64,000 nucleotides of DNA. Source: an uncultured Sangeribacter sp. Its GTDB lineage: Bacteria; Bacteroidota; Bacteroidia; Bacteroidales; Muribaculaceae. Below are positions 2-31,029 of this stretch, piece by piece (positions within the stretch are counted from its first letter, which is position 1; each line of letters begins with the position of its first letter). The stretch spans positions 4,979 to 68,978 of the forward strand of contig CAZDWB010000006.1 in assembly GCA_964509225.1 (NCBI GenBank), written 5' to 3'. The notes below the pieces were generated by a model. It made no database searches and was not told the origin of the DNA. It was given only the letters and a program-made list of their open reading frames with translations. Position numbers and translations under genes: made by a program.

Positions 2-1573
2 AATAGATCTGACCTTTTATACCTTCTTTTCCGTCGAGGATGGATGATTAGTAATAGAAAACTAAACTCCGAAAAGTTGTCCAAGTTTCCCTTTTTTGGC
101 AAATGGAAAATTTTTGAGGAATGTAATATTCAATTCATTTTACATCAAGACTCGAATATCTTTTTCTACACATCTAGTAAAAATAATTTAACATTTTTTC
201 TAATTGGGCATGCTTATAACCCTTTTACGATGGAGGAAAATGAAATAAATATTTTACAGTATATTTCAGATGTTTTTTTCGAACCGATAAAATTTCAAGA
301 GAGGATAAATGAACTTACTGGAATATTTATATTAGGTTGGATAAGAGAAAATAGATATATTTCATACATTCTAGACCCATCTGGGATACAAACAGCTTGT
401 TATGGAAATGTCAATTCAAATTTTATTTTAGTATCACATCCTCAAATTGCAGCTGATGTATATAATCTAAAGTTTGATATAGAAGTAAGTGAGATTGTAA
501 AATACAAATGGTATCCAAGAGTATTAGGATCCTATTTACCGGGTGATTTAACACAGTATAAAGAACTCAAACGAATCATTCCAAATTTCCTTTATCATAC
601 TGATTTACAATATTATCATACCACCTATAGAAGAATTTACCCACTCAATCCACTTCCCGAAGTAAAAAGTGAAGAAGATTATAAAAAAATTATCTACAAA
701 GGAGCGAATATTTTAAAATGTAGTATGGATTTAGTTGTAAAAAAATGGAAAAATCCTGCTATTTCCTTAACCGGAGGTATAGATTCACAAACTACATTTG
801 CGGCGGCAGTAGGTAATTATAATAGAATTAATGCCTTTAGTTACTTGTCAAACCATGAGGAATCAATAGATATCATAGCAGCAAGAAAAACAGCGAATGC
901 CTTTAATGTACCATATCGGCTCTATGAAATTCCAATAGATTCAAATAAAATCAATGATTATAATTTAAAAGCTGCAATTTTTGAACATAACAGCGGATAT
1001 ATTTCCTTCCTTAGACCTAATGAAATGCGCAAACGAATTGTCTTGGAACAGGATTTTGAATTTGATGTCGAAGTAAAATCTTGGGTTAGTGAAACAATTC
1101 GTGCATGTCAGTATAAGAGGTATCGAAAGAAAAAACTTCCTAGACTCTCACCTCAACTCTTTAGAAATCTATATAAAATATTTATTACTAATAGAAGTCT
1201 GGCTCATAAGCTAGATAAAATTTTTGCCGATTATATCGAAGATTACGAATATAATAAGTTACCCAAAGGTTATGATATTACTGATATGTACTTTTGGGAA
1301 GTTGGCTGGGGAAGTTGGGGCTCCCTCAATATCTCGGAAATGATGGTATATTCTGATATTACTATCATCTATAATAATCGTAAATTTCTTGATCTGTTGT
1401 TGCGAACTCCTCTTGAAAAACGTATTTCCGATGACAACCACAGAGATATGAAAAAATATCTTAATGAAAAATTATATGATATGAATATAGAAGTGGTGAA
1501 TATGAGTGAAGATTGGAGACGAGCTGCTTTTTTAAGAGCTATTTTTGATATTAACATGTTATTTAAAAAATAA
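2..1573 (+). CDS. Polysaccharide-locus protein with asparagine-synthetase-like (PP-loop) domain; probably 5'-truncated by the window edge
   Basis: The ORF track starts at 44, but the frame is open back to position 2 (NRSDLLYLLFRRGW-MISN...). SLTGGIDS is a PP-loop-like motif, and the DPSGIQTACY segment resembles AsnB N-terminal domains. It lies just upstream of a sugar transferase. Confidence 0.6.
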   Translation, partial: NRSDLLYLLFRRGWMISNRKLNSEKLSKFPFFGKWKIFEECNIQFILHQDSNIFFYTSSKNNLTFFLIGHAYNPFTMEENEINILQYISDVFFEPIKFQERINELTGIFILGWIRENRYISYILDPSGIQTACYGNVNSNFILVSHPQIAADVYNLKFDIEVSEIVKYKWYPRVLGSYLPGDLTQYKELKRIIPNFLYHTDLQYYHTTYRRIYPLNPLPEVKSEEDYKKIIYKGANILKCSMDLVVKKWKNPAISLTGGIDSQTTFAAAVGNYNRINAFSYLSNHEESIDIIAARKTANAFNVPYRLYEIPIDSNKINDYNLKAAIFEHNSGYISFLRPNEMRKRIVLEQDFEFDVEVKSWVSETIRACQYKRYRKKKLPRLSPQLFRNLYKIFITNRSLAHKLDKIFADYIEDYEYNKLPKGYDITDMYFWEVGWGSWGSLNISEMMVYSDITIIYNNRKFLDLLLRTPLEKRISDDNHRDMKKYLNEKLYDMNIEVVNMSEDWRRAAFLRAIFDINMLFKK

Positions 1574-1622
1574 CAATTTTATTGTAAAAGGCTATTTTTT
1601 AATACATTATATTAAAAAAACC

Positions 1623-2225
1623 ATGTATTCAAAGTTTAAGCGGTGCTTTGATTGCTTAGTGGCAATCATGGCACTAATTCTTTTATCTCCAATTTTACTT
1701 CTTACAGCTTTAGCAATAAAAATTGAGAGTCGAGGTCCGGTTATTTTTAAACAAGAAAGATTGGGAAAAAATGGAAAGGTCTTTAAAATATTAAAATTTC
1801 GTTCAATGGTGGTTGGTGCGGAAAAGACAGGGACCGGAGTTTACTCCTTTAAAGGTGACAATAGAATAACAAAAGTGGGAAAATTAATTCGTTCAACGAG
1901 TATTGACGAATTACCGCAACTTATAAATATTATAAAGGGAGAAATGGCTTTAATTGGACCTCGTCCTGCTCTTACATATCATCCTTGGACATTTGATAAG
2001 TATTCCCATCACCAAAAAAAGATGTTTGACGTCTTACCCGGAGTTACCGGTTGGGCTCAGATAAATGGAAGAAAAGAAGTCCCCTGGCCAGAACGAATTG
2101 AGCTAAACGCATGGTATGCTGAAAATTTTTCTTTCTCTTTAGATCTGAAAATTTTCTTTCTTACAATTTTTAAGGTTGTAACCAATGTCAATAACGAAAA
2201 CACCTCTAAAACCGGCAACAAATAA
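1623..2225 (+). CDS. Bacterial sugar transferase (priming undecaprenyl-phosphate glycosyl-1-phosphate transferase, WcaJ/PglC-like)
   Basis: KRCFD..., FKQERLGKNGKVFKILKFRSM, SIDELPQLINIIKGEMALIGPRP and PGVTGWAQINGR motifs. ATG at 1623 preferred over 1545. Confidence 0.92.
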   Translation: MYSKFKRCFDCLVAIMALILLSPILLLTALAIKIESRGPVIFKQERLGKNGKVFKILKFRSMVVGAEKTGTGVYSFKGDNRITKVGKLIRSTSIDELPQLINIIKGEMALIGPRPALTYHPWTFDKYSHHQKKMFDVLPGVTGWAQINGRKEVPWPERIELNAWYAENFSFSLDLKIFFLTIFKVVTNVNNENTSKTGNK

Positions 2226-2249
2226 CATCCTGTTTAATAATTTCTTTTT

Positions 2250-3095
2250 ATGCTTAACTTAATATATATCACCAATCAACCCAAAATTGCAAAAATAGCT
2301 GAAAGGGCAGGTGTTGATTGGATATTTGTTGATATGGAATGGATTGGCAAAAACAAACGCCAAGGAGGACTTGATACGGTTCAAAACCATCATACTTTTG
2401 AAGATATTAAGAAGATTAAGTCAGCAATATCAAGCGCTAAAGTTTTAGTTCGTGTAAACCCAATTCATGAGGAATTAAACGATTATCCCTCATCTGAAAA
2501 AGAGATTAAAAAAACTATTAAAGCCGGTGCCGATATAATAATGTTGCCTTTCTTCAAAACGCCTGAAGAAGTAAGCAGATTTATAAAATACGTTGACGGT
2601 AAGGCACGCACATTATTACTTGTAGAAACAAAGGAGGCAGTCGAAAATATTGATGAAATTTTATCATTTACCGGCATAGACGAAATTTATATCGGTTTAA
2701 ATGACTTACATCTATCCTATAACCTTGATTTCATGTTCCAGTTACTCGAAAATGGAACAGTTGATATGTTGGCAAAAAAATTTAAAGCCAAGGGGATACC
2801 TTTTGGTTTTGGTGGTATTGCCAAAATCGGAGGAGGTTTACTGCCGGCAGAACATATAATTGCAGAGCATTTTCGTTTAGGATCAACGCGGGGAATTTTA
2901 TCTCGTTCCTTTTGTGATTGTAATAAATTGAATGACCTTAATAATATTGCAACAATATTTGAAAATGGAGTTTCTGATATAAGAGTTCTGGAAGAAAATC
3001 TCTCCACGCAAAATGATAATTTTTTTGAGAAGAACCGCTGGTTTGTAAAAAAATCCGTCCAAAATATAGTAAATACTATTCGTTCAAAAAAATGA
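2250..3095 (+). CDS. HpcH/HpaI aldolase / citrate lyase-like protein
   Basis: WIFVDME, VLVRVNP, IMLPFFK, LLLVETKEA and YIGLNDLHLS motifs of the HpcH/HpaI TIM-barrel family. Confidence 0.8.
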   Translation: MLNLIYITNQPKIAKIAERAGVDWIFVDMEWIGKNKRQGGLDTVQNHHTFEDIKKIKSAISSAKVLVRVNPIHEELNDYPSSEKEIKKTIKAGADIIMLPFFKTPEEVSRFIKYVDGKARTLLLVETKEAVENIDEILSFTGIDEIYIGLNDLHLSYNLDFMFQLLENGTVDMLAKKFKAKGIPFGFGGIAKIGGGLLPAEHIIAEHFRLGSTRGILSRSFCDCNKLNDLNNIATIFENGVSDIRVLEENLSTQNDNFFEKNRWFVKKSVQNIVNTIRSKK

Positions 3096-3994
3096 ATATT
3101 CTCATTACAGGTGCTTTCAAATATACTCCATGTCAATTAAATCAAATTAAGGATCTTGGGGTCAAGGTGATAAATATGCCTATAGAAAGTGAAAATTTAC
3201 CCGTTAACCCTTTAGACGTTGAAGGAATTATTTGCAATGGTCTCTTTCTATATCATGATATATCTCAATTTTCGAACTTGAAATTTATTCAACTTACAAG
3301 TGCTGGTCTTGATAGAATTCCTCTTCAATATATATTAGACAATGAAATTAAACTCTATAACGCGAGGGGAGTTTATAGTAAACCTATGGCAGAATGGGTA
3401 TTAATGAGAATTCTTGAAAGGAATAAACATTCCGAACACTTTAATTCTGCACAAAAAGCTAATAGGTGGGAAAAGGATAGAGAACTAATCGAGCTCTCCG
3501 GCAAAAAGGCTGCCATCATAGGAGCTGGAAATGTTGGGCAAGAAATAGCCAAAAGATTATCTTCTTTTGATGTGAATATTACCGGTTATGATATTCACAA
3601 AAATAACATTCAGTTTTTTGATACTATTAAGCTAATCAAGGATTTCTTAAAAGAGGTAGAAATTTTTGATTATATCATTATCACAGCACCTTTAACTCCA
3701 GATACAAAAAACCTCATGAATATTTCTGTTTTAGAACGCATGAAAAAAGGCAGTATGCTTATAAATGTATCAAGAGGAGGAATACTAAATGAAGAGGATC
3801 TAATTAATCTCTTTTCTAAACGAAATGATCTTTATGCAGCTTTAGATGTCTTTGAAAAAGAACCTCTTCCGGAAGATTCCATATTGTGGCAAATGAATAA
3901 TATAAAGGTATCTCCTCATAATTCTTTTGTTGGGGAAGGTAATCAGCAGAGATTGTTTGAAGTTGTTCTATCAAACTTAAAGAAATCTATTTAA
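3092..3994 (+). CDS. D-isomer-specific 2-hydroxyacid dehydrogenase (NAD-binding)
   Basis: IIGAGNVG Rossmann motif, LINVSRGG, ALDVFEKEPL and SPH catalytic His. ATGA overlap with the aldolase. Confidence 0.88.
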   Translation: MNILITGAFKYTPCQLNQIKDLGVKVINMPIESENLPVNPLDVEGIICNGLFLYHDISQFSNLKFIQLTSAGLDRIPLQYILDNEIKLYNARGVYSKPMAEWVLMRILERNKHSEHFNSAQKANRWEKDRELIELSGKKAAIIGAGNVGQEIAKRLSSFDVNITGYDIHKNNIQFFDTIKLIKDFLKEVEIFDYIIITAPLTPDTKNLMNISVLERMKKGSMLINVSRGGILNEEDLINLFSKRNDLYAALDVFEKEPLPEDSILWQMNNIKVSPHNSFVGEGNQQRLFEVVLSNLKKSI

Positions 3995-4251
3995 ATAATA
4001 AAAACAAGCTGTATTGAAAACGACTCTTTGGTCTTCAATAAATAAAAAATGACGAACAATTTTATAAAAAATATAATTCCAAATTATAATTAATACTATA
4101 ACATACAAAATAATATAGAATCTTAAAAGAAGTAATGGTCAGAATTTCAAAAACATTCCAGATTAATGATTATTTGTCGAATTATAGAAGAATTTTTATA
4201 ACAATTAAAAAAATTCAAAATATTAAATTCAAATATTCTAAGCATTCTTCG

Positions 4252-5091
4252 ATGAAACAAATGTTTGGGAAAGATTTTATAAAGTATTCGTGGATTACAG
4301 TAGTAATTCTTATTTTTTTATGCTTTCTCCCTTTCCTTCTTACTCACCACGGACCAAAATTATTGGATTTTTCTCACACAGGAGAAATTGGTGATACTAT
4401 TGGGGGGACGATGAGTCCCTTTGTAGCAATTTTTGCAGCAATACTTACTTTCCTTGCTTTTTGGGTTCAATACAACGCTAACGAACAACAGCGACATGAC
4501 ATTGCCTTAGAAAGATTTGAAAGCAATCTTTTTCAATTAATATCGGTTCAAGAGGAAATCACCAATAATCTTACCTATTATTTATCTCAAAACAGCACCA
4601 CTAATGATATTCTGAAGGGAAGAAGGATTTTCGAATTTCTTTATCTGGAAAGAAGACTTGATTGGCAAAAAGGAATTCGAGGAAGTATCGAACATGAGGG
4701 AATCAAAGTAATAGAAAATGATAAATCATTAGGTTGTCTGGATCATTATTTCCGACATCTTTACAGGATATTTAAATATATTGATGATGAAAAAAAATTG
4801 GAACTTACAAAGAAAGAAAAATATGAGGATACATCTATAGTACGTTCGATGCTGTCTGAATATGAACTGCTCATCCTATTTTATAACTGTCTGGCTATTA
4901 ATAGTAACCATTCTTTCAAAGAATTAATTGAGGATTATGCAATTCTTAATAACATCCGGTGTGATCATTTAGCTCTTATAGAAGAACAAAACTATTATAA
5001 AGAGCTTTTGAAATCAGACTCATATATAGTTAAAAATTTACCTCCACAGAATCTTTACACAAAATCAGCATTTGTTTTTTCAGATAAATAA
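4252..5091 (+). CDS. Putative phage abortive infection protein (putAbiC-like) with N-terminal membrane segments
   Basis: GEIGDTIGG plus hydrophobic helices, ERFESNLFQLI, LDHYFRHLYRIFKYID and IVRSMLSEYELLILFYNCL, typical of the putAbiC family. Start 4252 preferred; the ORF is open from 4135. Confidence 0.75.
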   Translation: MKQMFGKDFIKYSWITVVILIFLCFLPFLLTHHGPKLLDFSHTGEIGDTIGGTMSPFVAIFAAILTFLAFWVQYNANEQQRHDIALERFESNLFQLISVQEEITNNLTYYLSQNSTTNDILKGRRIFEFLYLERRLDWQKGIRGSIEHEGIKVIENDKSLGCLDHYFRHLYRIFKYIDDEKKLELTKKEKYEDTSIVRSMLSEYELLILFYNCLAINSNHSFKELIEDYAILNNIRCDHLALIEEQNYYKELLKSDSYIVKNLPPQNLYTKSAFVFSDK

Positions 5092-5102
5092 TTCTTTTAA
5101 TT

Positions 5103-7067
5103 ATGGACTCAAAAATATTAAAAATTGAACCTAAAGAAGCAACAGAAAATATTCCTTCAAAAGATAGAGAATCATATCAGACAATAGACTCTGATGAAAA
5201 AGTTGATGCTTATAGTGTAGTGGAGAATATTTATGCTCTTCGTTCAAATTTCTTGATTATTGGGCTTACTGGTAGAACCGGTAGTGGTTGCTCTACTGTG
5301 GCAGAAATTCTTTCTGAAAAAGAATTTTCAAAATACAAGTCTAACTATAAATCCTTTAATTCCGGGCAGATTACAAATCAAGTCCGTAAAGACAGAATTG
5401 TTCATAATTTTTTAGAAAAAAATTGGGTCCCATTTACAGTAATCAAGGTACGTGATCTTATTTACTATTTTGCATTTCAACTCTCTTTTGATGATTTCGT
5501 AGACGCAGTAATTAAAGGTTATCAAAAAGATAAAGACCTCGGCAATGGAGAAGGAGATAATGAAGAAAATACTGATTACTCTGACAGAATTAAAGAATGC
5601 CTTACCCAGTTTAACTATGACGATATTCACAAAAAAATAACTGAACTAAAAGAATTTTTTGATAAAAGAGGATATCGTGATACAGAAGAACCTGATGAAC
5701 TTATTAAATATACAGATATGATTTTTATGGACTTATCTGATTCCAAAAAAGATATTGAAGAAAAACTAAATAAAATTTCTAAATCAATACTTCCAAGAAT
5801 TCTACAAACCTGGGGAGATAATATTAGAACATATAAAAGTGTTGTAGTAGGTGAACGAGTCAAAGATGCACCCGAAGCGCTTGCCAGAGTTGTTAATCAA
5901 ACCATTAAACTTATTAGAACTATAAATGACCTTAAAAGAAAAAAATCGTCAGGAGATGAACAATTTCAAACCTGTATCGTAATTGATAGTCTTAGAAATC
6001 CTTTTGAAATTCTCTTTTTTAGAGAAAGATGGTCTTCTTTCTATTGTATGTCAATAAATACTACACGTGAAATAAGATATAGTAAACTTATGACATTCAA
6101 GAAATTATCATTAGACGATATTTATAATATCGATGAAAGAGAGAAAGAAAAAAAGAATGTAGGCAACTCTTTCAGTCAAATAGACATTGATAGATGTATT
6201 CAGCTGTCGGACATATTTGTTAATCACGATGGAACACCACATACCCGAAATTTCAATCTTATAAATCAATTACATACCTACATAGCACTAATGTTGCATC
6301 CTGGGTTAATCCCCCCATCTTCTCAGGAACGTCTAATGCAAGTTGCGTATACTGCTAAACTTAATTCCGGCTGTCTGTCTCGACAAGTTGGGGCAGCCAT
6401 TACTGATGAGGAATATTCTTTGAAAGGGATAGGGTGGAATTCTTCACCGTCCGGCACTGTTCCCTGTTCTTTAAGAAATATGGATGATCTTTATAATCAA
6501 GAGGATTTGAATGCTTTTAGTGAACATGAGATAAAAAATAAAGAATTCCAGGAAAGAATTTCATTAATCAGTAATAAAGCCTCGGAAGGATGGAAGAACT
6601 TTAAAAATCTGAATGGAATTGGATTATCATATTGTTTTAAAGATATTCATGGTGGTATTAATCCAAAGCAAAAGTATAATCAAGTCCATACTCGTAGTCT
6701 GCATGCTGAAGAGAATGCGTTTCTCCAAATTGCTAAATATGGTGGAATGGGAATAAAAGGTGGGAAGCTATTTACAACTGCAAGTTGTTGTGAGTTATGC
6801 GCAAAAAAAGCTTATCATTTAGGAATAAAGGAAATCTATTATATAGATTCATATCCTGGAATTTCCATGCCACACGTCTTAAGTGTTGGCTCTTTAAGTC
6901 AACGACCCAAAATGATACTATTCAGTGGTGCTGTAGGTAGAGCATACGTTAATCTCTTTAATCCATTTATGCCATTGAAGGATGAATTTGAAGCGAGAAC
7001 AGGAATAAATATGAAAGACGTGGAAGATAGTAAACATAAAGATTCAAAGACCTATTTAACAAAATAG
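5103..7067 (+). CDS. Anti-phage dCTP deaminase (Dcd/AvcD type: P-loop kinase + deoxycytidylate deaminase)
   Basis: N-terminal IIGLTGRTGSGCST P-loop and VIDSLRNPFE. C-terminal AKLNSGCLSRQVGA, HAEENA and CCELCAKK zinc-deaminase motifs. Confidence 0.88.
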   Translation: MDSKILKIEPKEATENIPSKDRESYQTIDSDEKVDAYSVVENIYALRSNFLIIGLTGRTGSGCSTVAEILSEKEFSKYKSNYKSFNSGQITNQVRKDRIVHNFLEKNWVPFTVIKVRDLIYYFAFQLSFDDFVDAVIKGYQKDKDLGNGEGDNEENTDYSDRIKECLTQFNYDDIHKKITELKEFFDKRGYRDTEEPDELIKYTDMIFMDLSDSKKDIEEKLNKISKSILPRILQTWGDNIRTYKSVVVGERVKDAPEALARVVNQTIKLIRTINDLKRKKSSGDEQFQTCIVIDSLRNPFEILFFRERWSSFYCMSINTTREIRYSKLMTFKKLSLDDIYNIDEREKEKKNVGNSFSQIDIDRCIQLSDIFVNHDGTPHTRNFNLINQLHTYIALMLHPGLIPPSSQERLMQVAYTAKLNSGCLSRQVGAAITDEEYSLKGIGWNSSPSGTVPCSLRNMDDLYNQEDLNAFSEHEIKNKEFQERISLISNKASEGWKNFKNLNGIGLSYCFKDIHGGINPKQKYNQVHTRSLHAEENAFLQIAKYGGMGIKGGKLFTTASCCELCAKKAYHLGIKEIYYIDSYPGISMPHVLSVGSLSQRPKMILFSGAVGRAYVNLFNPFMPLKDEFEARTGINMKDVEDSKHKDSKTYLTK

Positions 7068-7081
7068 TAAACAAAGAAAAG

Positions 7082-7459
7082 ATGGCTATTATAATAGAAA
7101 CTGATTACATTGATAGTATATATAATGGACTTATCGAAAAAATACATTCCGGTCAAATCAAGACATGGATTATTGATAATGATAAAGACATTACGATAGC
7201 TAATATGAGATGGAGAAATAAAGCTTGGTTTAAAATTAAAAAAAAACCGGAAAACAACCAGCTCTTATTCGGAATCATTCCTTCAAGAAGGAATGAAATG
7301 TCTAAAGCTCTGTATGGAATATTTCATGGAAGATTAATTTCTACACTTCTCGCCCATTTTGATGAAGAAATAGAAGATATCAGAGTCACACCGGGATTTT
7401 ATGTTGATATCGATTATATCCCCTCTGAACTATTAGAGGAAATTAATTCAAGTACTTAA
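7082..7459 (+). CDS. Small hypothetical protein (125 aa) co-oriented with the dCTP deaminase
   Basis: Starts 14 nt after the deaminase stop. Aromatic-rich motifs TWIIDND, WRNKAW and YGIFHGRLI...LLAHFD look family-like. Confidence 0.7.
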   Translation: MAIIIETDYIDSIYNGLIEKIHSGQIKTWIIDNDKDITIANMRWRNKAWFKIKKKPENNQLLFGIIPSRRNEMSKALYGIFHGRLISTLLAHFDEEIEDIRVTPGFYVDIDYIPSELLEEINSST

Positions 7460-7490
7460 ATTTATAAAATAGTATAGATGAGGGGGATGG

Positions 7491-7522
7491 TTTGGTAGTT
7501 TGAGACAGATTTGGTAATTTTG
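7491..7522 (+). promoter_or_regulatory. Bacteroidetes primary-sigma promoter for the TIR-STAND module
   Basis: TTTG at 7491-7494, 20-nt spacer, TAATTTTG at 7515-7522; ATG follows at 7563. Confidence 0.7.
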
Positions 7523-7562
7523 ATGATGTAAATGTTTTACTGATGAGTTTTATCCCCGTATC

Positions 7563-10088
7563 ATGAATTTGGGTTTGCAACATAGTTTTAAGGTGTTTCT
7601 TTCGTGGGAGTCCGATGTGCCGGGCATGAAGGATTTCCTCGATAGGATTCTTACTGAGAGTGCCGCTAAAGTTGCTGACAACAAAAATATACAGATTTCT
7701 GTAGATGAGGCTACCCGCAATCTTCCGGGTTCCCCTAATATCATTAACTCCTTGATTTCTAAAATTGAGAAGTGTGATATATTTGTGGCTGATATTACTC
7801 CGATTGAATGGCGCTCCAAAGGTGAGGGTGATAAAGAATCAATCAAGCTTAACCCTAATCCAAACGTGATGTTTGAATTAGGTTACGCTGTTGCCCTTAA
7901 AGGTTGGGATAGGGTGATTTTAGTGCGCAAGGAGGATGGTTCTGATTACAAGGATATTCCTTCTGATATTTTATTTAATCTTTCGGAAATTATCTCAGCT
8001 GATAAAGATGTAGATTTATCATTTAAAATTGAAAAAATTATCGATACCATTCTTTCTGCTCAAAAGGAACAGTATCCTTATTTCTTTAATGAAGAGAGGT
8101 TAAAACTCAATCTGAAATCGGAGAAATATATCCCCGAAGTTTATCTGGACGATTATCTTACCAGACAGAAAATCCGATTTTTTATAGACCCTTATTCTTT
8201 ATATCGCAAGGAGCTGGATGAATTAAAAATTCTGAATTTCGATCTCCTTAATTCCAAATACAGAGTTCAGGGAATAAAGGAGTTTAATCTTGATCTCTCT
8301 TTATTTCCGGAGAATATTACTCACAATTCCTTTTCCGAATCATTAGATATTTTAAAGGTTTGCCGGGACCAACTCAATAGTACTTATGAATTTCTATATC
8401 ACTCGGGCAATGATGGATGGAAAAGTTCATATAAGTTAAGAGACCGCCAGGAGCGTTTTGATTTTGCTGCAAAGCGCGTTTTACTAATTAAGGAGGTTGC
8501 CGGTCAAGGGAAAACCAACCTGATATGCAATATTGTGGATAAGTTCCTCTTAAGACGGGGAATCCCTTTTCTTTGGCTTAATGGTTATGAAATAGATGGT
8601 AATGATTTTGAAGGGAGTTTTCTTAAAAATGCCCTTCATAATCATTTTAAGTCATTGGAAGAAGGGATACGTGTAGCGGAAGGTTTATGTCAATACACTC
8701 ACAAACCGCTGATTATTATTATTGATGGATTGAATGAAATAAAATATGAGGGTCGGCTGGTAAGTCGCCTAAATGCTTTCATTAATCTTTTGCTGAGTTA
8801 TGAGCATATCAGGGTCATCCTTACTTGCCGGAAAGAATATTTCGAAGAGAAGTTCAAGGATAATTATGGTCTGTCCTCCGAAACGGTGATAATTCAGCGT
8901 CTGAATCATATCACTCATAATCCCGCTAAGAGACGTCTGTTGCTTGAAGGATACTGTAAACATTTTAATATAACATTAGATGTCAGCGACCTTGAGGAAG
9001 AATATCTTACAAATAATATGCTGTTTCTTAGGATATTCTGCGATGTAAACCGGGGAAAGAAAATAAACAGGATTGACCGGAGGAAATACCATCTGTTTGC
9101 TGAGTATTATGAGAACTCAATTTATTCTCTTTCTCAACAAATCAATGTTGTGACCGGAGAGAATTTTACGAAGAGTGATATCCGGTCGTTCTATCTTAAT
9201 ATAATCTCGTTGATGATCGGAAGAGACTCCTTATACAATATCCCTTTAGAGGAAGTCAGAGGGAATCTCGACTCTCGATTCCGTGGATTTCTGGAAAATA
9301 TATTGGACGAGAATATTCTGATTAAGAGGGAGCTCGACAAGGAGGGGGAAGTGATATCTTTCACTTACGATGAATTTCGCGACTTTATGATTGCCAAATA
9401 TCTTGTTGATATTATCTTGATTCAGAAAGGGGATGAACAGATGTTCAGGAAATTCCTGGATAATCTTCAGGAGGCGAATCCTAAAGAGGGTATTTTACCT
9501 TTCCTGTTTGTACATATTTGGGAAAATCATAAAAAACAAGCTAAGGATATCATAAAGAGCTATAATTGGTGTGATGCTTTATTCGCTCTGAATATCTGGA
9601 AAGTTGAGGATAAAATAATCTCGCATGAGGATATGGAAAAGGTCAAAAGATTGTTTAAAAAATTCCCTTACCGTATCACCTTTGACCTTTTATACAGATG
9701 GGATCTTAAAACTTATAAGAATCTGAACATCAATACCCTCATTGACATAGTCGGGAGTTTTGACGATGGTGATTTGATGAAATATATCGAATTTGTTTTC
9801 AGTCCTAAGAAGCAACGGAATAATTACTATATGCGAAAAGAAGATGATAGTTTAGGTGCCCAATTCATCAACCAAATAAAGATTCTTATTAACGATAAAC
9901 TATATGTTGACCGTAAGGCTCTGAAACATCTTATAAAATTTTCATTATTCCTGACCCCTAAATATCCTAAATTGCGACTTTTGATTGAACAATACCTCAA
10001 CGATTCAAACGATAGGGAAATCATTGACGGTATTCTTACTGTTACCAAGAGCCAGGAGGTATCTGAAATTTTACAGCAATGGAGATGA
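7563..10088 (+). CDS. TIR-like/nucleoside-deoxyribosyltransferase-like N-terminal domain fused to a STAND (NACHT-like) NTPase; NLR/Avs-like defence candidate
   Basis: N-terminus FLSWESD...DEATRNLPGSPNI...CDIFVADIT...NPNVMFELGYA with a putative catalytic Glu. Walker A EVAGQGKTN, Walker B IIIIDGLNE, then VILTCR and FTYDEFRDF, then a helical C-terminal region. Confidence 0.75.
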   Translation: MNLGLQHSFKVFLSWESDVPGMKDFLDRILTESAAKVADNKNIQISVDEATRNLPGSPNIINSLISKIEKCDIFVADITPIEWRSKGEGDKESIKLNPNPNVMFELGYAVALKGWDRVILVRKEDGSDYKDIPSDILFNLSEIISADKDVDLSFKIEKIIDTILSAQKEQYPYFFNEERLKLNLKSEKYIPEVYLDDYLTRQKIRFFIDPYSLYRKELDELKILNFDLLNSKYRVQGIKEFNLDLSLFPENITHNSFSESLDILKVCRDQLNSTYEFLYHSGNDGWKSSYKLRDRQERFDFAAKRVLLIKEVAGQGKTNLICNIVDKFLLRRGIPFLWLNGYEIDGNDFEGSFLKNALHNHFKSLEEGIRVAEGLCQYTHKPLIIIIDGLNEIKYEGRLVSRLNAFINLLLSYEHIRVILTCRKEYFEEKFKDNYGLSSETVIIQRLNHITHNPAKRRLLLEGYCKHFNITLDVSDLEEEYLTNNMLFLRIFCDVNRGKKINRIDRRKYHLFAEYYENSIYSLSQQINVVTGENFTKSDIRSFYLNIISLMIGRDSLYNIPLEEVRGNLDSRFRGFLENILDENILIKRELDKEGEVISFTYDEFRDFMIAKYLVDIILIQKGDEQMFRKFLDNLQEANPKEGILPFLFVHIWENHKKQAKDIIKSYNWCDALFALNIWKVEDKIISHEDMEKVKRLFKKFPYRITFDLLYRWDLKTYKNLNINTLIDIVGSFDDGDLMKYIEFVFSPKKQRNNYYMRKEDDSLGAQFINQIKILINDKLYVDRKALKHLIKFSLFLTPKYPKLRLLIEQYLNDSNDREIIDGILTVTKSQEVSEILQQWR

Positions 10089-10483
10089 GATACGACTTTG
10101 ACTCTTATAACTCCTTATTGTTGGTAGATAGGAATCTGAATAAGGATTTATTCCTGAAGCGTGTAGGAGCGGTCTCCGGTTACGCTGTAAAGCTTTTCTC
10201 GGATATTTATGATGCCATGTTTTCAGAGAGTATTGATTTGGAAAGGGTATACTATGAATACTATAAGGATGAATTCAGTTCCTTTGGGGATTATTTGAAA
10301 GAGGAATTTTCTCTACCTGATTCTATCCACAACAACATTATGAAAGACCTTAAAGAAAATGAACATCTGAAAGTTATCCTTTGGGAACAACTTTCCTATG
10401 GATTTAATGATATTGAATCTTTCATATTCGGTGAAAAAATGAGGGAGACATTTGAAAAAGTTTTAACAGGCAGGGAATCATGA
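10085..10483 (+). CDS. Hypothetical acidic/aromatic protein (~132 aa)
   Basis: ATGA overlap with the upstream STAND stop (10085-10088) and with the downstream start (10480-10483). No recognisable motif. Confidence 0.7.
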   Translation: MRYDFDSYNSLLLVDRNLNKDLFLKRVGAVSGYAVKLFSDIYDAMFSESIDLERVYYEYYKDEFSSFGDYLKEEFSLPDSIHNNIMKDLKENEHLKVILWEQLSYGFNDIESFIFGEKMRETFEKVLTGRES

Positions 10484-10899
10484 AGATTAAAACGGATTTT
10501 GTTACTAATAGTTCCTCTACATGTTATGTCGTCATGACCAAGGGGGAGTTTACACTTGAATCTTTCCTTAAGGCTTCAGGAATAGAGGAAACATCTCCGT
10601 TCCGTACTATGTTCGAAACGCTCTTCAATTCTCTCTCATCTTTTATTTCACCTTTGGAAACAGGTGTTAAAAAACATCGTTGGTATAAGGATAGATGTAC
10701 TTCAACTGAAGAATTTATAAAAGTTTATTTCTCAAATGAAACATGGGAAAGAATTCAAAAAGCCAGAAAAGAGGGGTTTGAAGTGTATATTGGAGAACTC
10801 TCCAGTGAAGAGAACGAAATAGAAACTTTTTTCTGCACTTCATCCTTTGTGATTGAATCGGATTCATTGATTATAGATGCTTCTTGTGATGGATGGTAG
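10480..10899 (+). CDS. Hypothetical protein with N-terminal MKIKTDFVTNSSS motif
   Basis: ORF track; distinctive N-terminal motif; overlaps the radical SAM gene start. Confidence 0.75.
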   Translation: MKIKTDFVTNSSSTCYVVMTKGEFTLESFLKASGIEETSPFRTMFETLFNSLSSFISPLETGVKKHRWYKDRCTSTEEFIKVYFSNETWERIQKARKEGFEVYIGELSSEENEIETFFCTSSFVIESDSLIIDASCDGW

Positions 10900-11932
10900 G
10901 ACTATTTTATTCAATCATACTTCTGAACACTACAGCACTATCTTCAATCAACGTAACGGTTTCTTTGCAAGAGTTGAAGATTATAACCATCCCGAACCAT
11001 CTTGGGCTGCAGACGGTCCTGAACTTTTAGATATTTCCATAACCAATTATTGCACACAAGGTTGCTCTTTCTGCTACCGCAATTCGAATCCGGATGGAGG
11101 GAATATGCCCCTCCATGATATGGAATTTATTTTGGAGCAGTGCATGGGTGACAGCAAAGTATATCAAATAGCATTGGGGGGAGGTAATCCCAATCAGCAT
11201 CCTGAATTCATAAAAATCCTGAAACTGATCCGTGAAGCGGATATAATTCCCACCTTCACATCAAACGGGTTCGGTCTCACTCAAGATATAATAAATGCCA
11301 CAGCAGAATATTGTGGGGCGATTGGAATAAGTGCATATCCTCCCTACGAGATTCTGAGTAAAAGAATCAATTTATTATTTGCGGCAGGAATCAGGGTCAA
11401 TCTCCACATAATTCTTTCAAGGGAAAATTTCAATCAGATAATTTCATGGCTTGAAAATCCACCAGGGTGGTTTAACTCTTTAAATGCAATTATTTTTCTC
11501 AATTATAAACCTATTCGTAAAGAAGAGGGGTATAACAATTTGACTGAAGATGAACTTAAAAAGTTTTTCTCTTTAATTGCAGAATCCGATGTAAAAATCG
11601 GTTTTGACAGTTGCTCAATATCGGGAGTACTAAAATGGCTCGCTACACCTTCATATTTCATTGAATCTTGTGAAGCCGCCAAATTTTCAGCATTTATCTC
11701 GGAGGACTTAAAGATGTATCCCTGTTCGTTCATGATAAACTCGGATTGGTATGGAAATCTACGGGAGATGAGTTTAATGGATATCTGGCATAATTCTCCC
11801 TATTTCCGGGAATTTAGAGATAACAGCCTTCCGGACAATTGCAAAGGGTGTGAAGTAAGGAATGAATGTAAGGGTGGATGTCATTTCATGCCGGAGATTA
11901 ATCTTTGTAAAAAGGGGGAGTCCCGAATTTGA
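10889..11932 (+). CDS. Radical SAM protein with C-terminal SPASM domain
   Basis: CTQGCSFC (CxxxCxxC), IALGGGNP, then CEAAKF...MYPCSF...GNL and CKGCEVRNECKGGC SPASM cysteines. Start 10889 (MDGR) or 10877. Confidence 0.88.
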   Translation: MDGRTILFNHTSEHYSTIFNQRNGFFARVEDYNHPEPSWAADGPELLDISITNYCTQGCSFCYRNSNPDGGNMPLHDMEFILEQCMGDSKVYQIALGGGNPNQHPEFIKILKLIREADIIPTFTSNGFGLTQDIINATAEYCGAIGISAYPPYEILSKRINLLFAAGIRVNLHIILSRENFNQIISWLENPPGWFNSLNAIIFLNYKPIRKEEGYNNLTEDELKKFFSLIAESDVKIGFDSCSISGVLKWLATPSYFIESCEAAKFSAFISEDLKMYPCSFMINSDWYGNLREMSLMDIWHNSPYFREFRDNSLPDNCKGCEVRNECKGGCHFMPEINLCKKGESRI

Positions 11933-11950
11933 ATTAATTCATAAATACCT

Positions 11951-12340
11951 ATGATTATTGATAATAGTTTACTTGATAAGGTTGAGGAGGAAGCGCGACG
12001 TTCTCCGCGGCTTCGAATGAACCGGAATATACATGAGTCGTTCGATGATAGGGTACAACAGATGATCAATGTCCTTATACCGGGAACTCTGATGCCGGTG
12101 CATCGTCATCTCCATTCATCCGAAACATTTATTCTTCTACGGGGAAAGATGTTTGTAATGTATTATGATGAACTTGGAAGGGAAGTGGAGAGGATTCTAC
12201 TTGATCCTCTGGCAGGGAACTATGGAGTAAATATTCCCAAGGGTCAGTGGCATGGAGTGGAAGTGATTGAAACGTCGGCTATTTTAGAGGTTAAAGAGGG
12301 TCCCTATACACCTCTTACTCCGGAAAATATACTTTATTGA
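11951..12340 (+). CDS. WbuC-family cupin-fold metalloprotein (polysaccharide locus)
   Basis: SPRLRMNRNIH, PVHRHLHSSET, IPKGQWHGV and EVKEGPY motifs. Confidence 0.85.
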   Translation: MIIDNSLLDKVEEEARRSPRLRMNRNIHESFDDRVQQMINVLIPGTLMPVHRHLHSSETFILLRGKMFVMYYDELGREVERILLDPLAGNYGVNIPKGQWHGVEVIETSAILEVKEGPYTPLTPENILY

Positions 12341-12341
12341 T

Positions 12342-13580
12342 ATGGAAAGAATTCTTCTTTGCAAACCCAAAATGAGTGGAAAGGAGCTTGATTTTATTAT
12401 TCCTGCTCTTGCTGAAGATTGGGCTGTCCCCTTGGGTCCGGATGTTACTGCGTTTGAAAGGGAACTGGGAAAAGTGGTTGGGTCTGATCACGTGGTTGCT
12501 CTCGAATCGGGAACTTCTGCAATTCATCTTGCGCTGATTTTATGTGGTGTTAAACCGGGCGATGAGGTGATAGTTCAGTCCATGACTTTTTGCGCTTCCA
12601 CAAATCCTGTGGCTTATCTTGGAGCGACACCGGTATTTGTAGATTCTGAAGGGGAGTCCTGGAATATGGATCCTCAACTTCTTGAAACTGCCATTAAGGA
12701 TCGTATCAGGAAAACGGGTAAAAAGCCGAAGGCTATCATCCCTGTGGCTCTATACGGGATGCCATATCAGATTGAACGCATACTGGAAATTGCCAATCGC
12801 TATGATATCCCTGTGATTGAGGATGCTGCTGAGGGATTCTGTTCAAAATATAACGGTAAGATTTTGGGGACATTCGGTCGATTCGGTGTGCTGTCTTTTA
12901 ATGGTAACAAGATGATCACTACTTCGGGAGGTGGCGCACTGATATGTCCGGATAAAGAGACTGCCGAAAAGGCAAAGTGGTATGCTACGCAAGCTCGTGA
13001 AGGGTATCCTTATTATCAACATGAGGAAGTGGGATATAATTATCGCCTGTCTAATATTTCCGCGTGTATAGGGAGGGCACAACTTTTAGTGCTTGAGGAT
13101 TATCTTGCACATCATAAACGGGTTCAGACCCTTTATTGTGAACTGCTTAAGGATGTAGACGGGCTAAAAATGCACAAAAATCCCTCGACTCTCTTTGATT
13201 CCAATTTCTGGCTTTGCACTGCCACACTTGACCCAAACCTTAAAATACGTGGTGAGGAAGATGTTTACAAAAGCGTTATTAAAGGTGCGGTTGGAGGTGC
13301 TACAGGAGTAGTCCATGCCGCGACTTCTGCCAGGACCACATGCCAGCCAAATGATAATGTAGAGGCATTAAGAGTATTTCTCGATAAGGCTAACATTGAG
13401 GCAAGACCTTTATGGAAACCTATGCATCGTCAGCCGGTGTTTGCCGATTGTCCGGCATACGTGAACGGAGTGAGCGAGCAGCTGTTTGAACAGGGGATAT
13501 GCTTGCCTGCCGGTCCGTATGTGACAGACGACCATGTTCACTATATCGTAGCGAACATAAAGAAGGCATTAGCTGAATAA
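12342..13580 (+). CDS. DegT/DnrJ/EryC1/StrS family sugar aminotransferase
   Basis: SGTSAIHLAL, IEDAAEG, SFNGNKMITTSGGGAL (PLP lysine), GYNYRLSN and RPLWKPMH motifs. Confidence 0.92.
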   Translation: MERILLCKPKMSGKELDFIIPALAEDWAVPLGPDVTAFERELGKVVGSDHVVALESGTSAIHLALILCGVKPGDEVIVQSMTFCASTNPVAYLGATPVFVDSEGESWNMDPQLLETAIKDRIRKTGKKPKAIIPVALYGMPYQIERILEIANRYDIPVIEDAAEGFCSKYNGKILGTFGRFGVLSFNGNKMITTSGGGALICPDKETAEKAKWYATQAREGYPYYQHEEVGYNYRLSNISACIGRAQLLVLEDYLAHHKRVQTLYCELLKDVDGLKMHKNPSTLFDSNFWLCTATLDPNLKIRGEEDVYKSVIKGAVGGATGVVHAATSARTTCQPNDNVEALRVFLDKANIEARPLWKPMHRQPVFADCPAYVNGVSEQLFEQGICLPAGPYVTDDHVHYIVANIKKALAE

Positions 13581-30997: not shown

Positions 30998-31029
30998 TTT
31001 GTGAGTGACAATAAAAATCGGTAAATTTG
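30998..31029 (+). promoter_or_regulatory. Bacteroidetes promoter for the pur operon
   Basis: TTTG at 30998-31001, 20-nt spacer, TAAATTTG at 31022-31029. Confidence 0.72.

What the first reader, a model, noticed from the sequence alone, without database searches (positions are those of the whole stretch)
7491..11932. Candidate undescribed defence system: TIR-like/STAND NTPase coupled to two small genes and a radical SAM/SPASM enzyme
Seen: four genes follow their own consensus Bacteroidetes promoter (7491-7522). They are chained by ATGA overlaps at 10085-10088 and 10480-10483 and by an 11-nt overlap at 10889-10899, so they form one translationally coupled unit. Gene 1 has a TIR/NDT-like domain with an intact-looking Glu (NPNVMFELGYA) fused to a STAND ATPase. 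Gene 4 is a radical SAM/SPASM enzyme. Established: N-terminal-effector STAND proteins are the architecture of Avs/bacterial NLR anti-phage sensors, and SPASM enzymes usually modify peptides or proteins. Inference: I know of no described defence system pairing an NLR-like protein with a SPASM maturase and two accessory proteins. The unit sits directly after two known defence-gene types. It may be a system in which a radical-modified protein is the ligand, signal, guard substrate or toxin of the STAND sensor.
Basis: partly seen in the sequence, partly recalled or inferred. Interest (0 to 1): 0.88.

Follow-up and report, generated by a model that had tools for sequence, protein, structure and literature searches.

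The report
Four-gene STAND plus radical-SAM defence cassette
The four genes are a real, strictly conserved module found in at least 14 phyla: an NLR-like ATPase with a swappable killing domain, two small sister proteins and a protein-modifying radical SAM enzyme. It is very probably an unnamed anti-phage system whose closest published relative is the poorly understood KpAvs2/Avap operon.

Summary
Four same-strand ORFs (7563-11932) are chained by two ATGA overlaps and an 11-nt overlap. They encode a TIR-STAND protein, two small proteins and a radical SAM/SPASM enzyme.

The unit is not a local accident:
- Anchored on the rSAM, 77 of 77 genome loci with enough upstream DNA carry all four genes in the same order.
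- Anchored on the STAND protein, 66 of 66 metagenome loci with room do too.
- The loci span at least 14 phyla, including one archaeon.

The STAND N-terminus swaps between TIR, SMEK nuclease, trypsin-like protease, PNP and hydrolase domains. Neighbours are often defence genes, and six proviral contigs carry the cassette.

New details:
- The two small proteins are paralogues.
- Gene 3 has a confident predicted fold with no PDB match, an invariant N-terminal DFVTNSSS motif, and ends in Trp in 128 of 132 homologues.
- Gene 2 is naturally fused to the STAND C-terminus in at least 7 lineages.
- The rSAM's closest solved relative is SuiB, a Trp-crosslinking maturase.

The novelty claim is too strong. 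KpAvs2 + Avap1 (rSAM) + Avap2, and the predicted FxSxx-COOH/TIR-AP-ATPase systems, are precedents. This cassette matches neither, and I found no name for it. Function is untested.

The parts
7491..7522 (+). Bacteroidetes-type promoter-like motif (TTTG-N20-TAATTTTG), 40 nt upstream of gene 1
   Evidence: Exact match. Only 2 matches in the window against 2.25 expected by chance, so only its position supports it.
7563..10088 (+). Gene 1: TIR-STAND (NLR-like) protein, 841 aa
   Evidence: ORF. Pfam TIR and weak STAND hits. PADLOC and NCBIfam Avs2 models match the NTPase region only. AF2 model pLDDT 86. Foldseek top hits are NLRC4, Avs4, NOD2 and Avs5.
7584..7997 (+). N-terminal TIR/NDT-like effector domain (aa 8-145); the NPNVMFELGYA motif is at 7857-7889 and Glu105 at 7875-7877
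   Evidence: PF10137 30.2 bits against a cutoff of 24.7. Alpha/beta fold in the AF2 model. Motif position. In homologues this position holds SMEK, trypsin, PNP or hydrolase domains instead.
8019..8468 (+). Conserved helical linker between effector and NTPase (aa 153-302), a candidate docking site for the small proteins
   Evidence: Helices in the AF2 model. K188, R205, F207 and P210 are invariant, and Y189 and N230 nearly invariant, whatever the effector type. The docking role is inferred by analogy with Avap2 binding in KpAvs2.
8478..9491 (+). STAND NTPase module with helical and winged-helix parts (aa 306-643); Walker A GQGKT at 8502-8516, Walker B IIIIDGLNE at 8712-8738
   Evidence: Motifs. 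A313, G314, G316, K317, T318, D388, N391, E392 and R423 are invariant. PADLOC Avs2 E 1.3e-25 over aa 296-665.
9492..10085 (+). Short all-helical C-terminal domain (aa 644-841); no long repeat sensor
   Evidence: AF2 secondary structure. Gene 2 is fused directly after this domain in at least 7 divergent homologues.
10085..10483 (+). Gene 2: 132-aa protein, a divergent paralogue of gene 3 that lacks the NSSS motif and the C-terminal Trp
   Evidence: ATGA overlap with gene 1. hhalign against the gene 3 family gives probability 98%, E 2.9e-13. No Pfam, PADLOC, NCBIfam or PHROG family. Present between genes 1 and 3 in 72 of 77 genome loci as a separate ORF, and fused to gene 1 in others.
10480..10899 (+). 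Gene 3: 139-aa protein of apparently new fold; invariant N-terminal motif DFVTNSSST at 10495-10527, conserved Cys119 (FFCTSSF, 10828-10848), C-terminal Trp139 codon at 10894-10896
   Evidence: ATGA overlap with gene 2. Invariant M1, K2, D6, F7, V8, N10, S11-S13, T14, C119 and W139. The last residue is W in 128 of 132 unique homologues. AF2 pLDDT 89.8. No Foldseek match in PDB or BFVD. At least 1018 database homologues, all unnamed and with no Pfam domain among the 120 listed.
10889..11932 (+). Gene 4: radical SAM/SPASM enzyme, 347 aa; CxxxCxxC at 11051-11074, GGGNPNQHP at 11177-11203, SPASM cysteines within 11669-11908
   Evidence: 11-nt overlap with gene 3. Pfam PF04055 and PF13186 both above cutoff. 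Invariant cysteines. Best solved relative is SuiB 5v1q, followed by PqqE and anSME. No NCBIfam model reaches its cutoff.
4135..7067 (+). Context, not part of the cassette: AbiP/putAbiC-like gene (4135-5091) and dCTP-deaminase defence gene (5103-7067) directly upstream
   Evidence: Pfam and PADLOC. These genes are not conserved next to the cassette in other loci.

Best explanation
This is a self-contained four-gene NLR-like (STAND) conflict module, most likely an abortive-infection anti-phage system.

Shown by sequence and comparison:
1. The four genes always travel together, in the same order, and are translationally coupled.
2. Gene 1 is a STAND NTPase whose N-terminal domain is exchanged between lineages. 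It is a TIR here, and a SMEK nuclease, trypsin-like protease, PNP or alpha/beta-hydrolase elsewhere. It lacks the long C-terminal repeat sensor of the known Avs proteins.
3. Genes 2 and 3 are paralogues. Gene 2 is fused to the C-terminus of the STAND protein in several lineages.
4. Gene 3 keeps an invariant N-terminal DFVTNSSS motif and ends in Trp almost without exception.
5. Gene 4 is a complete radical SAM/SPASM enzyme whose nearest characterised relatives modify peptides or proteins: SuiB (Lys-Trp crosslink), MftC (acts on a C-terminal Tyr), PqqE and anSME.

Inferred:
1. The rSAM post-translationally modifies gene 3 protein, possibly at or near its C-terminal Trp.
2. Gene 2 protein docks on the STAND C-terminus and pairs with its paralogue, gene 3 protein.
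3. This small-protein module replaces the missing sensor domain, or gates it.
4. On infection the STAND oligomerises and its effector arrests or kills the cell. Here the effector would be a TIR NADase that depletes NAD+.
For: Obligate synteny in both directions:
- 77/77 for rSAM-anchored genome loci.
- 66/66 for STAND-anchored metagenome loci with room; the 14 others are cut by a contig end.
- Spread over at least 14 phyla including Methanoregula.

Defence signature:
- Effector swapping: SMEK_N 21, trypsin 5, TIR/NDT 3-4, PNP 1, NNH5 1, hydrolase 1-2 of 68.
- NLRC4, Avs4, NOD2 and Avs5 are the top structural matches.
- Immediate neighbours include Avs1a, LmuA, DRT reverse transcriptase, SIR2, AriA and AbiLii. 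In the window they are AbiP-like and dCTP deaminase.
- The complete cassette is on 6 IMG/VR contigs and on the Agrobacterium pAt plasmid next to an integrase and a toxin-antitoxin gene.
- GC is low relative to the core genome.

Small proteins:
- Paralogy of genes 2 and 3.
- Gene 1-gene 2 fusions in at least 7 sequences that are 21-50% identical to each other.
- C-terminal W in 128/132, aromatic in 131/132, also where genes 3 and 4 do not overlap.
- Confident new fold.

rSAM as a protein maturase:
- Full SPASM cysteine set.
- SuiB is the best solved relative, E 1.3e-10 alone and 8.4e-15 with a profile.
- WgkB and MftC are the best NCBIfam hits.
- Gene 3 always lies directly upstream of it, as precursors do in RiPP clusters.

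Precedent: KpAvs2 needs the small protein Avap2, which binds it, and for some phages the rSAM Avap1.
Against: - No experiment bears on this cassette: no phage phenotype, no NADase assay, no mass shift on gene 3 protein.
- All matches of the rSAM to named maturase families are far below their cutoffs (for example MftC 60 bits against 265), so the chemistry cannot be read from homology.
- The rSAM has only about 45 residues before the core and no recognisable RRE.
- Gene 3 protein is a folded 139-aa protein, not a short peptide.
- The invariant NSSS motif and Cys119 could equally mark an active or binding site of gene 3 protein itself, with the terminal Trp serving only as a docking residue.
- I could not run a multimer prediction, so every protein-protein contact except the gene 1-gene 2 fusions is inference.
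- The defence-gene counts among neighbours come from crude ORF calls, and no background rate was computed.
Confidence: 0.6

Rival explanations
1. It is simply a member of the already described KpAvs2-Avap1-Avap2 family. Gene 1 would be an Avs2, gene 4 an Avap1, and gene 2 or 3 an Avap2 (duplicated here), so nothing new is present beyond a shorter Avs2.
For: The best defence-model hit of gene 1 is Avs2 (PADLOC E 1.3e-25; NCBIfam NF041813 E 1.7e-21). KpAvs2 also has a radical SAM accessory and a small accessory protein, which binds the helical region between effector and NTPase. Gene 1 has a strongly conserved helical linker at the same place. KpAvs2-operon homologues are reported from Nitrospirae and deltaproteobacteria, groups also found here.
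Against: - The NCBIfam Avs2 score is 75.9 bits against a cutoff of 1000, and only the NTPase region matches.
- KpAvs2 has more than 1352 residues with a long C-terminal sensor. The homologues here are 711-1178 aa with a helical C-terminus of about 200 aa.
- The KpAvs2 operon has three genes, this one four.
- None of 135 gene 2 and gene 3 homologues, nor their consensus sequences, hits PF19902/DUF6375 even at E <= 1-10.
- The paper does not describe Avap1 as having a SPASM domain.
- Four plasmid-borne Avs2 genes inspected have no rSAM neighbour.
- I could not obtain the Avap sequences, so remote homology is not excluded.
Confidence: 0.2
2. The radical SAM enzyme makes a small antiviral or signalling molecule, viperin-like or as a second messenger for the STAND. 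The two small proteins are scaffolds or immunity factors, not substrates.
For: Weak PADLOC pVip and NCBIfam viperin hits to the rSAM core (E 2.2e-11 and 1.2e-8). Other defence systems use rSAM enzymes on nucleotides, for example viperins, and Ophion is proposed to do so.
Against: - The viperin score is 34.5 bits against a cutoff of 180, and only the generic rSAM core (aa 55-152) matches.
- The enzyme has a full SPASM domain with two auxiliary-cluster cysteine sets, a signature of peptide and protein maturases. Its best solved relatives are SuiB, PqqE and anSME.
- There is no nucleotide kinase or other small-molecule pathway gene in the cassette.
- The strict adjacency of gene 3 and its invariant terminal Trp are left unexplained.
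Confidence: 0.12
3. It is not a defence system. It would be a RiPP-like or protein-cofactor maturation operon with a STAND ATPase as regulator or chaperone, or a selfish addiction (toxin-antitoxin-like) module that merely travels with mobile DNA.
For: rSAM/SPASM enzymes with adjacent small proteins usually mean peptide or cofactor maturation. STAND ATPases also act as regulators in other contexts (my own knowledge). No phenotype data exist. In KpAvs2, removing Avap2 seemed toxic, which is antitoxin-like behaviour.
Against: - There is no transporter, leader peptidase, DNA-binding domain or downstream enzyme that would use a cofactor.
- The STAND N-termini are cell-killing effector types that swap between lineages.
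- Flanking genes differ in every locus and are often defence genes.
- An addiction-like behaviour would be compatible with abortive-infection defence rather than opposed to it.
Confidence: 0.08

Closest known systems
KpAvs2 operon: Avs2 + Avap1 (radical SAM) + Avap2 (DUF6375-like), Bechon et al. 2024, PMC11564622
   Same: An effector-STAND protein is encoded with a radical SAM enzyme and a small accessory protein of unknown function. The accessory protein binds the STAND. The operon lies in defence islands and acts by abortive infection. The role of the rSAM is unknown there too.
   Different: - Three genes there, four here (two paralogous small proteins).
- KpAvs2 is a canonical long Avs2 (more than 1352 aa) with a C-terminal sensor that binds phage proteins. 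Gene 1 is 841 aa with a short helical C-terminus.
- Genes 2 and 3 give no DUF6375 hit.
- The rSAM here has a full SPASM domain.
Avs / AVAST type 2 and other single-gene bacterial NLR-like sensors (Avs1-5, bNACHT)
   Same: An N-terminal swappable effector plus a central STAND NTPase. The fold resembles Avs4, Avs5 and NLRC4, and the Avs2 HMMs are the best defence hits.
   Different: Far below the Avs2 family cutoff (75.9 against 1000 bits). It has no long TPR-like sensor domain and is obligately linked to three further genes.
FxSxx-COOH peptide-processing systems with rSAM-SPASM coupled to TIR-AP-ATPase in actinobacterial VMAP ternary systems (Kaur et al. 2020, PMC7159879; computational prediction)
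   Same: An rSAM-SPASM enzyme, a small protein defined by a conserved C-terminal motif, and a TIR-STAND effector in one predicted conflict system.
   Different: Those systems have a zincin metallopeptidase, a rapidly diverging precursor cleaved to a short peptide, and vWA-MoxR components. Here there is no peptidase or vWA/MoxR, the small protein is a conserved folded domain ending in Trp, and it has a paralogue.
Radical SAM/SPASM peptide and protein maturases: SuiB (streptide Lys-Trp crosslink), WgkB, MftC (mycofactocin, acts on a C-terminal Tyr), PqqE, anSME
   Same: CxxxCxxC plus a complete SPASM cysteine set. SuiB is the best solved relative, and WgkB and MftC are the best NCBIfam hits. The putative substrate gene lies directly upstream and has a conserved aromatic C-terminus.
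   Different: Every family score is far below its cutoff. There is no RRE-sized N-terminal domain, and the presumed substrate is a folded 139-aa protein. No chemistry is known.
HXS anti-phage system (rSAM-matured effector with His-Xaa-Ser repeats; PMC13128918)
   Same: A precedent that an rSAM maturase and its protein substrate together form an anti-phage system.
   Different: Judging from the title and abstract only, it has a periplasmic effector with HxS repeats that blocks DNA entry, and nothing there points to a STAND NTPase or an effector domain. The gene families are unrelated as far as tested: the rSAM hit list shows no Hxs models among the best 25.

Membership tests
Avs2 (AVAST type 2) | Full-length match to the curated family model (NCBIfam NF041813, cutoff 1000 bits) | tested here: not met
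   75.9 bits, covering aa 295-673 only. The PADLOC Avs2 models match only aa 296-666.
Avs2 (AVAST type 2) | Tripartite protein with a long C-terminal repeat sensor that binds a phage protein | tested here: not met
   The AF2 model shows only about 200 helical residues after the NTPase and winged-helix module. Family lengths are 711-1178 aa, against 1532 aa for R. marinus Avs2 and more than 1352 aa for KpAvs2.
STAND / NLR-like NTPase | Walker A and B P-loop NTPase followed by helical and winged-helix domains, with an NLR-like fold | tested here: met
   GQGKT at 314-318 and hhhhDGLNE at 384-392 are invariant. Foldseek top hits are NLRC4, Avs4, NOD2 and Avs5 with probability 1.0.
KpAvs2-Avap operon | Small accessory protein related to Pfam PF19902 (DUF6375) | tested here: not met
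   No PF19902 hit for 67 gene 3 and 68 gene 2 homologues at E <= 1, nor for the consensus sequences at E <= 10. This is an HMMER-level test only; the paper's link was an HHpred hit.
KpAvs2-Avap operon | Radical SAM accessory protein homologous to Avap1 | not testable with these tools
   The Avap1 sequence is not held, and no KpAvs2-type operon was found in the plasmid collection.
TIR domain NADase (CAP12/Pycsar-type) | Match to PF10137 above the gathering score, with the conserved catalytic Glu | tested here: met
   30.2 bits against a cutoff of 24.7. Glu105 lies in NPNVMFELGYA, and the motif LPNPNVMxELG is conserved in the TIR-bearing homologues. NADase activity itself was not tested.
Radical SAM / SPASM maturase | CxxxCxxC cluster motif plus the SPASM cysteine motif for auxiliary clusters | tested here: met
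   PF04055 49.3 bits (cutoff 29.5) and PF13186 39.6 bits (cutoff 21.5). C55, C59, C62, C261, C279, C318, C321, C327, C331 and C340 are invariant.
Radical SAM / SPASM maturase | Acts on a co-encoded peptide or protein substrate | not testable with these tools
   Inferred only, from gene 3 lying directly upstream in every locus with a C-terminal Trp in 128/132.
Prokaryotic viperin (pVip) | Match to NF038283 at or above 180 bits | tested here: not met
   34.5 bits, generic rSAM core only.
Mycofactocin maturase MftC / streptide-type KxxxW maturases / WgkB | Match to the curated equivalog models (cutoffs 265, 500 and 650 bits) | tested here: not met
   60.4, 38.7 and 62.2 bits. There is resemblance, not membership.
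FxSxx-COOH peptide-processing system | Small protein ending in FxSxx, plus a zincin metallopeptidase | tested here: not met
   Gene 3 protein ends in ...W. There is no peptidase gene in the cassette in any locus.

The most novel reading that the evidence does not exclude
The radical SAM enzyme installs a new kind of modification on the C-terminal Trp (or the NSSS/Cys119 site) of a new-fold protein. That modified protein, paired with its paralogue on the STAND C-terminus, would be the actual sensing element of an NLR-like receptor that has no sensor domain of its own. For example, the system could guard the cell's SAM, Fe-S or reducing status: if infection, phage SAM lyases or host shut-off stop the modification, the STAND fires. 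That would be a protein-borne, enzyme-written signal controlling a bacterial NLR, a mechanism with no described counterpart.
Probability: 0.15. Interest if true: 0.9.

Novelty: new variant of a known kind. Interest (0 to 1): 0.78.

Why it matters
Bacterial NLR-like (Avs/STAND) proteins are thought to sense phage proteins through their own long C-terminal domains. Here a large, cross-phylum family (about 1000 or more database homologues each of genes 3 and 4) lacks that domain. Instead it is inseparably linked to a protein-modifying radical SAM enzyme and two small proteins of apparently new fold.

If it defends, it would show a different way of arming or gating an NLR. It would also give the unexplained rSAM accessory of KpAvs2 a tractable, strongly conserved counterpart with an obvious candidate substrate residue, and it would add a missing model to defence-annotation tools. 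None of the three accessory genes has a Pfam, PADLOC or NCBIfam family. The cassette is compact (4.4 kb) and carries clear point-mutant targets, so the hypothesis is directly testable.

Tried and rejected
1. Named-system search. PADLOC, NCBIfam, Pfam and PHROGs gave no family for genes 2 and 3. Gene 4 reached only generic rSAM/SPASM level, apart from phage family phrog_7293 of unknown function.
2. Literature. Eight full-text searches found no paper on this cassette. Ophion, HXS, the P. gingivalis ICE preprint and the 2026 Avs8-21 paper were checked and set aside as different.
3. Getting KpAvs2/Avap sequences. No supplement is held. Five plasmid Avs2 loci and three low-identity plasmid rSAM loci were inspected, and none is an Avs2 + rSAM operon.
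4. DUF6375 link. Members and consensus sequences of genes 2 and 3 were scanned at lax thresholds, with no hit.
5. Gene 3-gene 4 fusions. The two long rSAM variants carry a C-terminal extension, not gene 3.
6. Phage counterparts. Slopekvirus rSAM homologues have no gene 2 or gene 3 neighbours. The gene 3 fold has no BFVD match.
7. Transcription evidence. No public run holding this DNA could be listed.
8. Insertion boundaries. No convincing flanking direct or inverted repeats, and no terminator-like site between gene 4 and the downstream WbuC gene.
It was redone with database hits.
10. Multimer prediction and inspection of model coordinates were not possible with these tools.

Full report

Yes. 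The + strand carries four consecutive ORFs:
- 7563-10088 (841 aa)
- 10085-10483 (132 aa, with an alternative start at 10079)
- 10480-10899 (139 aa)
- 10889-11932 (347 aa)

A gene caller on two independent assemblies of the same DNA gives the same four products.

The Bacteroidetes-type promoter motif is at 7491-7522. The pattern occurs twice in the window against 2.25 expected by chance, so only its position, 40 nt before the first ATG in a 103-nt gap, speaks for it.

Domain calls hold:
- Gene 1 has a CAP12/Pycsar-type TIR domain above the Pfam cutoff, with Glu105 in NPNVMFELGYA. It also has a STAND NTPase whose best defence-model hit is Avs2, over the NTPase region only.
- Gene 4 has Radical_SAM and SPASM domains above cutoff, with all cluster cysteines.
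- The two genes upstream are an AbiP/putAbiC-like gene and a dCTP-deaminase defence gene.

**2. Is it a unit?**

I anchored on the rSAM and fetched 80 loci from one genome per species. In all 77 loci with enough upstream DNA, homologues of genes 1, 2 (or an ORF of the right size in that slot), 3 and 4 lie in the same order. They mostly overlap or sit a few bases apart.

I then anchored on the STAND protein in metagenome contigs. Of 80 loci, 66 have the complete trio downstream and 14 are cut by the contig end. None with room lacks it.

The loci come from Bacteroidota, Bacillota, Alpha- and Gammaproteobacteria, Campylobacterota, Desulfobacterota, Myxococcota, Acidobacteriota, Verrucomicrobiota, Planctomycetota, Chloroflexota, Nitrospirota, Spirochaetota, Cyanobacteria and a Methanoregula archaeon. 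Flanking genes are not conserved.

**3. Is it a defence system?**

There is no experiment, but the signature is the usual one.
- The N-terminal domain of the STAND protein is exchanged between lineages. Among 68 homologues, 21 have a SMEK domain, which PMC10810196 lists as a nuclease domain. Five have a trypsin-like protease, three or four a TIR/NDT domain, and single cases have PNP, NNH5 or alpha/beta-hydrolase domains.
- The AF2 model of gene 1 (pLDDT 86) consists of an alpha/beta TIR-like domain, a helical linker, the NTPase with helical and winged-helix parts, and about 200 helical residues. Its best structural matches are NLRC4, Avs4, NOD2 and the Avs5 filament.
- Of 121 crude ORFs immediately flanking the cassette in other genomes, several hit Avs1a, Lamassu LmuA, DRT reverse transcriptases, SIR2, AriA and AbiLii models.
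- Six IMG/VR contigs carry the whole cassette.
- In Agrobacterium pAt it lies near an integrase and a VapB gene. RefSeq annotates it there only as [quoted passage not shown].
- In the window, the cassette and the two defence genes before it sit inside a row of polysaccharide-synthesis genes. GC is 0.30-0.39 there, against 0.445 beyond 12 kb.

**4. What the small genes are**

Neither has a Pfam, PADLOC, NCBIfam or PHROG family.

They are paralogues of each other: the profile-profile comparison gives probability 98%, E 2.9e-13.

Gene 3 is the conserved copy.
- M1, K2, D6, F7, V8, N10, S11-S13, T14, C119 and W139 are invariant or nearly so.
- Among 132 unique full-length homologues the last residue is Trp in 128, Tyr in 2, Phe in 1 and Ile in 1. 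NSSS[TS] is present in 126.
- The terminal Trp is also kept where genes 3 and 4 do not overlap, so it is not a by-product of the overlapping start of gene 4.
- Its AF2 model is confident (pLDDT 89.8, pTM 0.85) and has no significant Foldseek match in the PDB (best E 0.59) or in BFVD (best E 0.37).
- The family has at least 1018 members at 90% clustering. In the 50%-identity library there are 1222 representatives at E <= 0.001 and 272 at E <= 1e-10. All are unnamed.

Gene 2 is much more divergent (mean column identity 24%) and has lost both the NSSS motif and the terminal Trp. It is fused to the C-terminus of the STAND protein in at least seven sequences that are only 21-50% identical to each other. 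That is good evidence that it works on the STAND C-terminus.

**5. The radical SAM enzyme**

It is the most conserved component, at 41-62% identity across phyla. It has CxxxCxxC and a full SPASM cysteine set.

No NCBIfam model comes near its cutoff. The best are WgkB (62 bits), MftC (60 bits) and the tungsten-cofactor maturase. By sequence the closest solved structure is SuiB, the streptide Lys-Trp crosslinking enzyme (E 1.3e-10, or 8.4e-15 with a profile), followed by PqqE and anSME. Viperin models match only the generic core and are far below cutoff.

Taken together with the position of gene 3 directly upstream and its invariant aromatic C-terminus, the most economical reading is that gene 3 protein is the substrate. 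This is inference. The site and the chemistry are unknown.

**6. Proposed mechanism**

Shown:
- obligate four-gene linkage
- effector swapping
- an NLR-like fold without a long sensor
- paralogy of genes 2 and 3
- gene 1-gene 2 fusions
- the conserved N- and C-terminal motifs of gene 3
- a complete SPASM maturase

Inferred:
- The rSAM modifies gene 3 protein.
- Gene 2 protein docks on the STAND C-terminus and pairs with gene 3 protein.
- This module senses infection or gates the STAND.
- Activation oligomerises the STAND and switches on the effector, here a TIR NADase.

The linker between effector and NTPase carries residues invariant across all effector types: K188, R205, F207 and P210, with Y189 and N230 nearly so. 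It is the counterpart of the region where Avap2 binds KpAvs2, so it is a second candidate docking site.

**7. Comparison with what is known**

Two precedents exist.
- The KpAvs2 operon (PMC11564622) encodes a canonical long Avs2, the rSAM Avap1 and the small Avap2. Avap2 binds KpAvs2 and is needed for defence. Avap1 is needed only against some phages, and neither role is understood.
- Kaur et al. 2020 (PMC7159879) predicted rSAM-SPASM/FxSxx-COOH peptide-processing modules coupled to TIR-AP-ATPases in actinobacterial ternary systems.

The present cassette fails the tested defining features of both:
- It is far below the Avs2 cutoff.
- It has no long sensor.
- It has four genes rather than three.
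- Genes 2 and 3 give no DUF6375 signal.
- It has no metallopeptidase and no FxSxx terminus.

Whether Avap1 and Avap2 are remote homologues of genes 4 and 2/3 could not be tested, because I could not obtain their sequences. That is the main uncertainty on novelty.

I therefore class it as a new variant of a known kind: a STAND/NLR-like defence with accessory rSAM and small proteins. As far as PADLOC v2, NCBIfam r20 and the searchable literature show, it is unnamed.

**8. Verdict**

The unit and its defence character are strongly supported by comparative evidence. The claim of no precedent is overstated, and the mechanism remains inference.

Interest is high. The family is large, cross-phylum and strictly conserved, it contains a protein of apparently new fold with a striking C-terminal Trp, and it offers direct experiments.

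Noticed in passing
window 7082-7459 (+): A 125-aa ORF starts 15 nt after the dCTP-deaminase defence gene. It has no Pfam, PADLOC, NCBIfam or PHROG family. It accompanies that gene in two other assemblies, but is not found next to the cassette in other genomes. It may be an accessory of the deaminase system.
   Followed up: partly
window 1545-13580: The defence genes (4135-11932) are embedded in a same-strand row of polysaccharide or O-antigen-type genes. Upstream are a sugar transferase, an HpcH aldolase and a 2-hydroxyacid dehydrogenase. Downstream are a WbuC cupin and a DegT aminotransferase. GC is 0.30-0.39 over 1-11.9 kb against about 0.445 afterwards. No flanking repeats and no terminator-like site were found between gene 4 and the WbuC gene.
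   Followed up: partly
L083 (Klebsiella phage KP15, NC_014036.1) 3869-5071; 179 phage records in all: T4-like Klebsiella, Enterobacter, Cronobacter and Citrobacter phages (Slopekvirus and relatives; phrog_7293) encode a lone full-length homologue of the rSAM/SPASM enzyme at 27% identity, with no gene 2 or gene 3 homologue nearby. Its function is unknown. A counter-defence or mimic role is conceivable but untested.
   Followed up: partly
L014, L125, L133, L134, L151, L171, L037: Natural fusions place gene 2 at the C-terminus of the STAND protein in at least seven divergent sequences (21-50% identical to each other). L148 may even contain gene 1, 2 and 3 parts in one ORF, but its gene 3 match is partial.
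   Followed up: yes
P0037, P0055 (rSAM homologues, 528 and 524 aa): Some rSAM homologues carry an extra C-terminal domain of about 180 aa of unknown nature. It is not a gene 3 fusion.
   Followed up: partly
L019, L020, L023: The same 3.27-kb cassette contig is binned into three MAGs labelled Vampirovibrio, Bacilli and Eubacterium (mouse gut). This is probably mis-binning of a mobile or shared fragment.
   Followed up: no
L082 (E. coli plasmid CP099011.1) 6557-7993; L179 (Photobacterium plasmid) 6638-8065: Conjugative plasmids of E. coli, Salmonella and Photobacterium carry a lone rSAM protein of about 475 aa (24-26% identical to gene 4) right after a recombinase gene. It is unrelated to the cassette and its function is unknown.
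   Followed up: no
window 30998-31029 (+): This is the only other exact match in the window to the TTTG-N18-22-TAnnTTTG promoter pattern.
   Followed up: no
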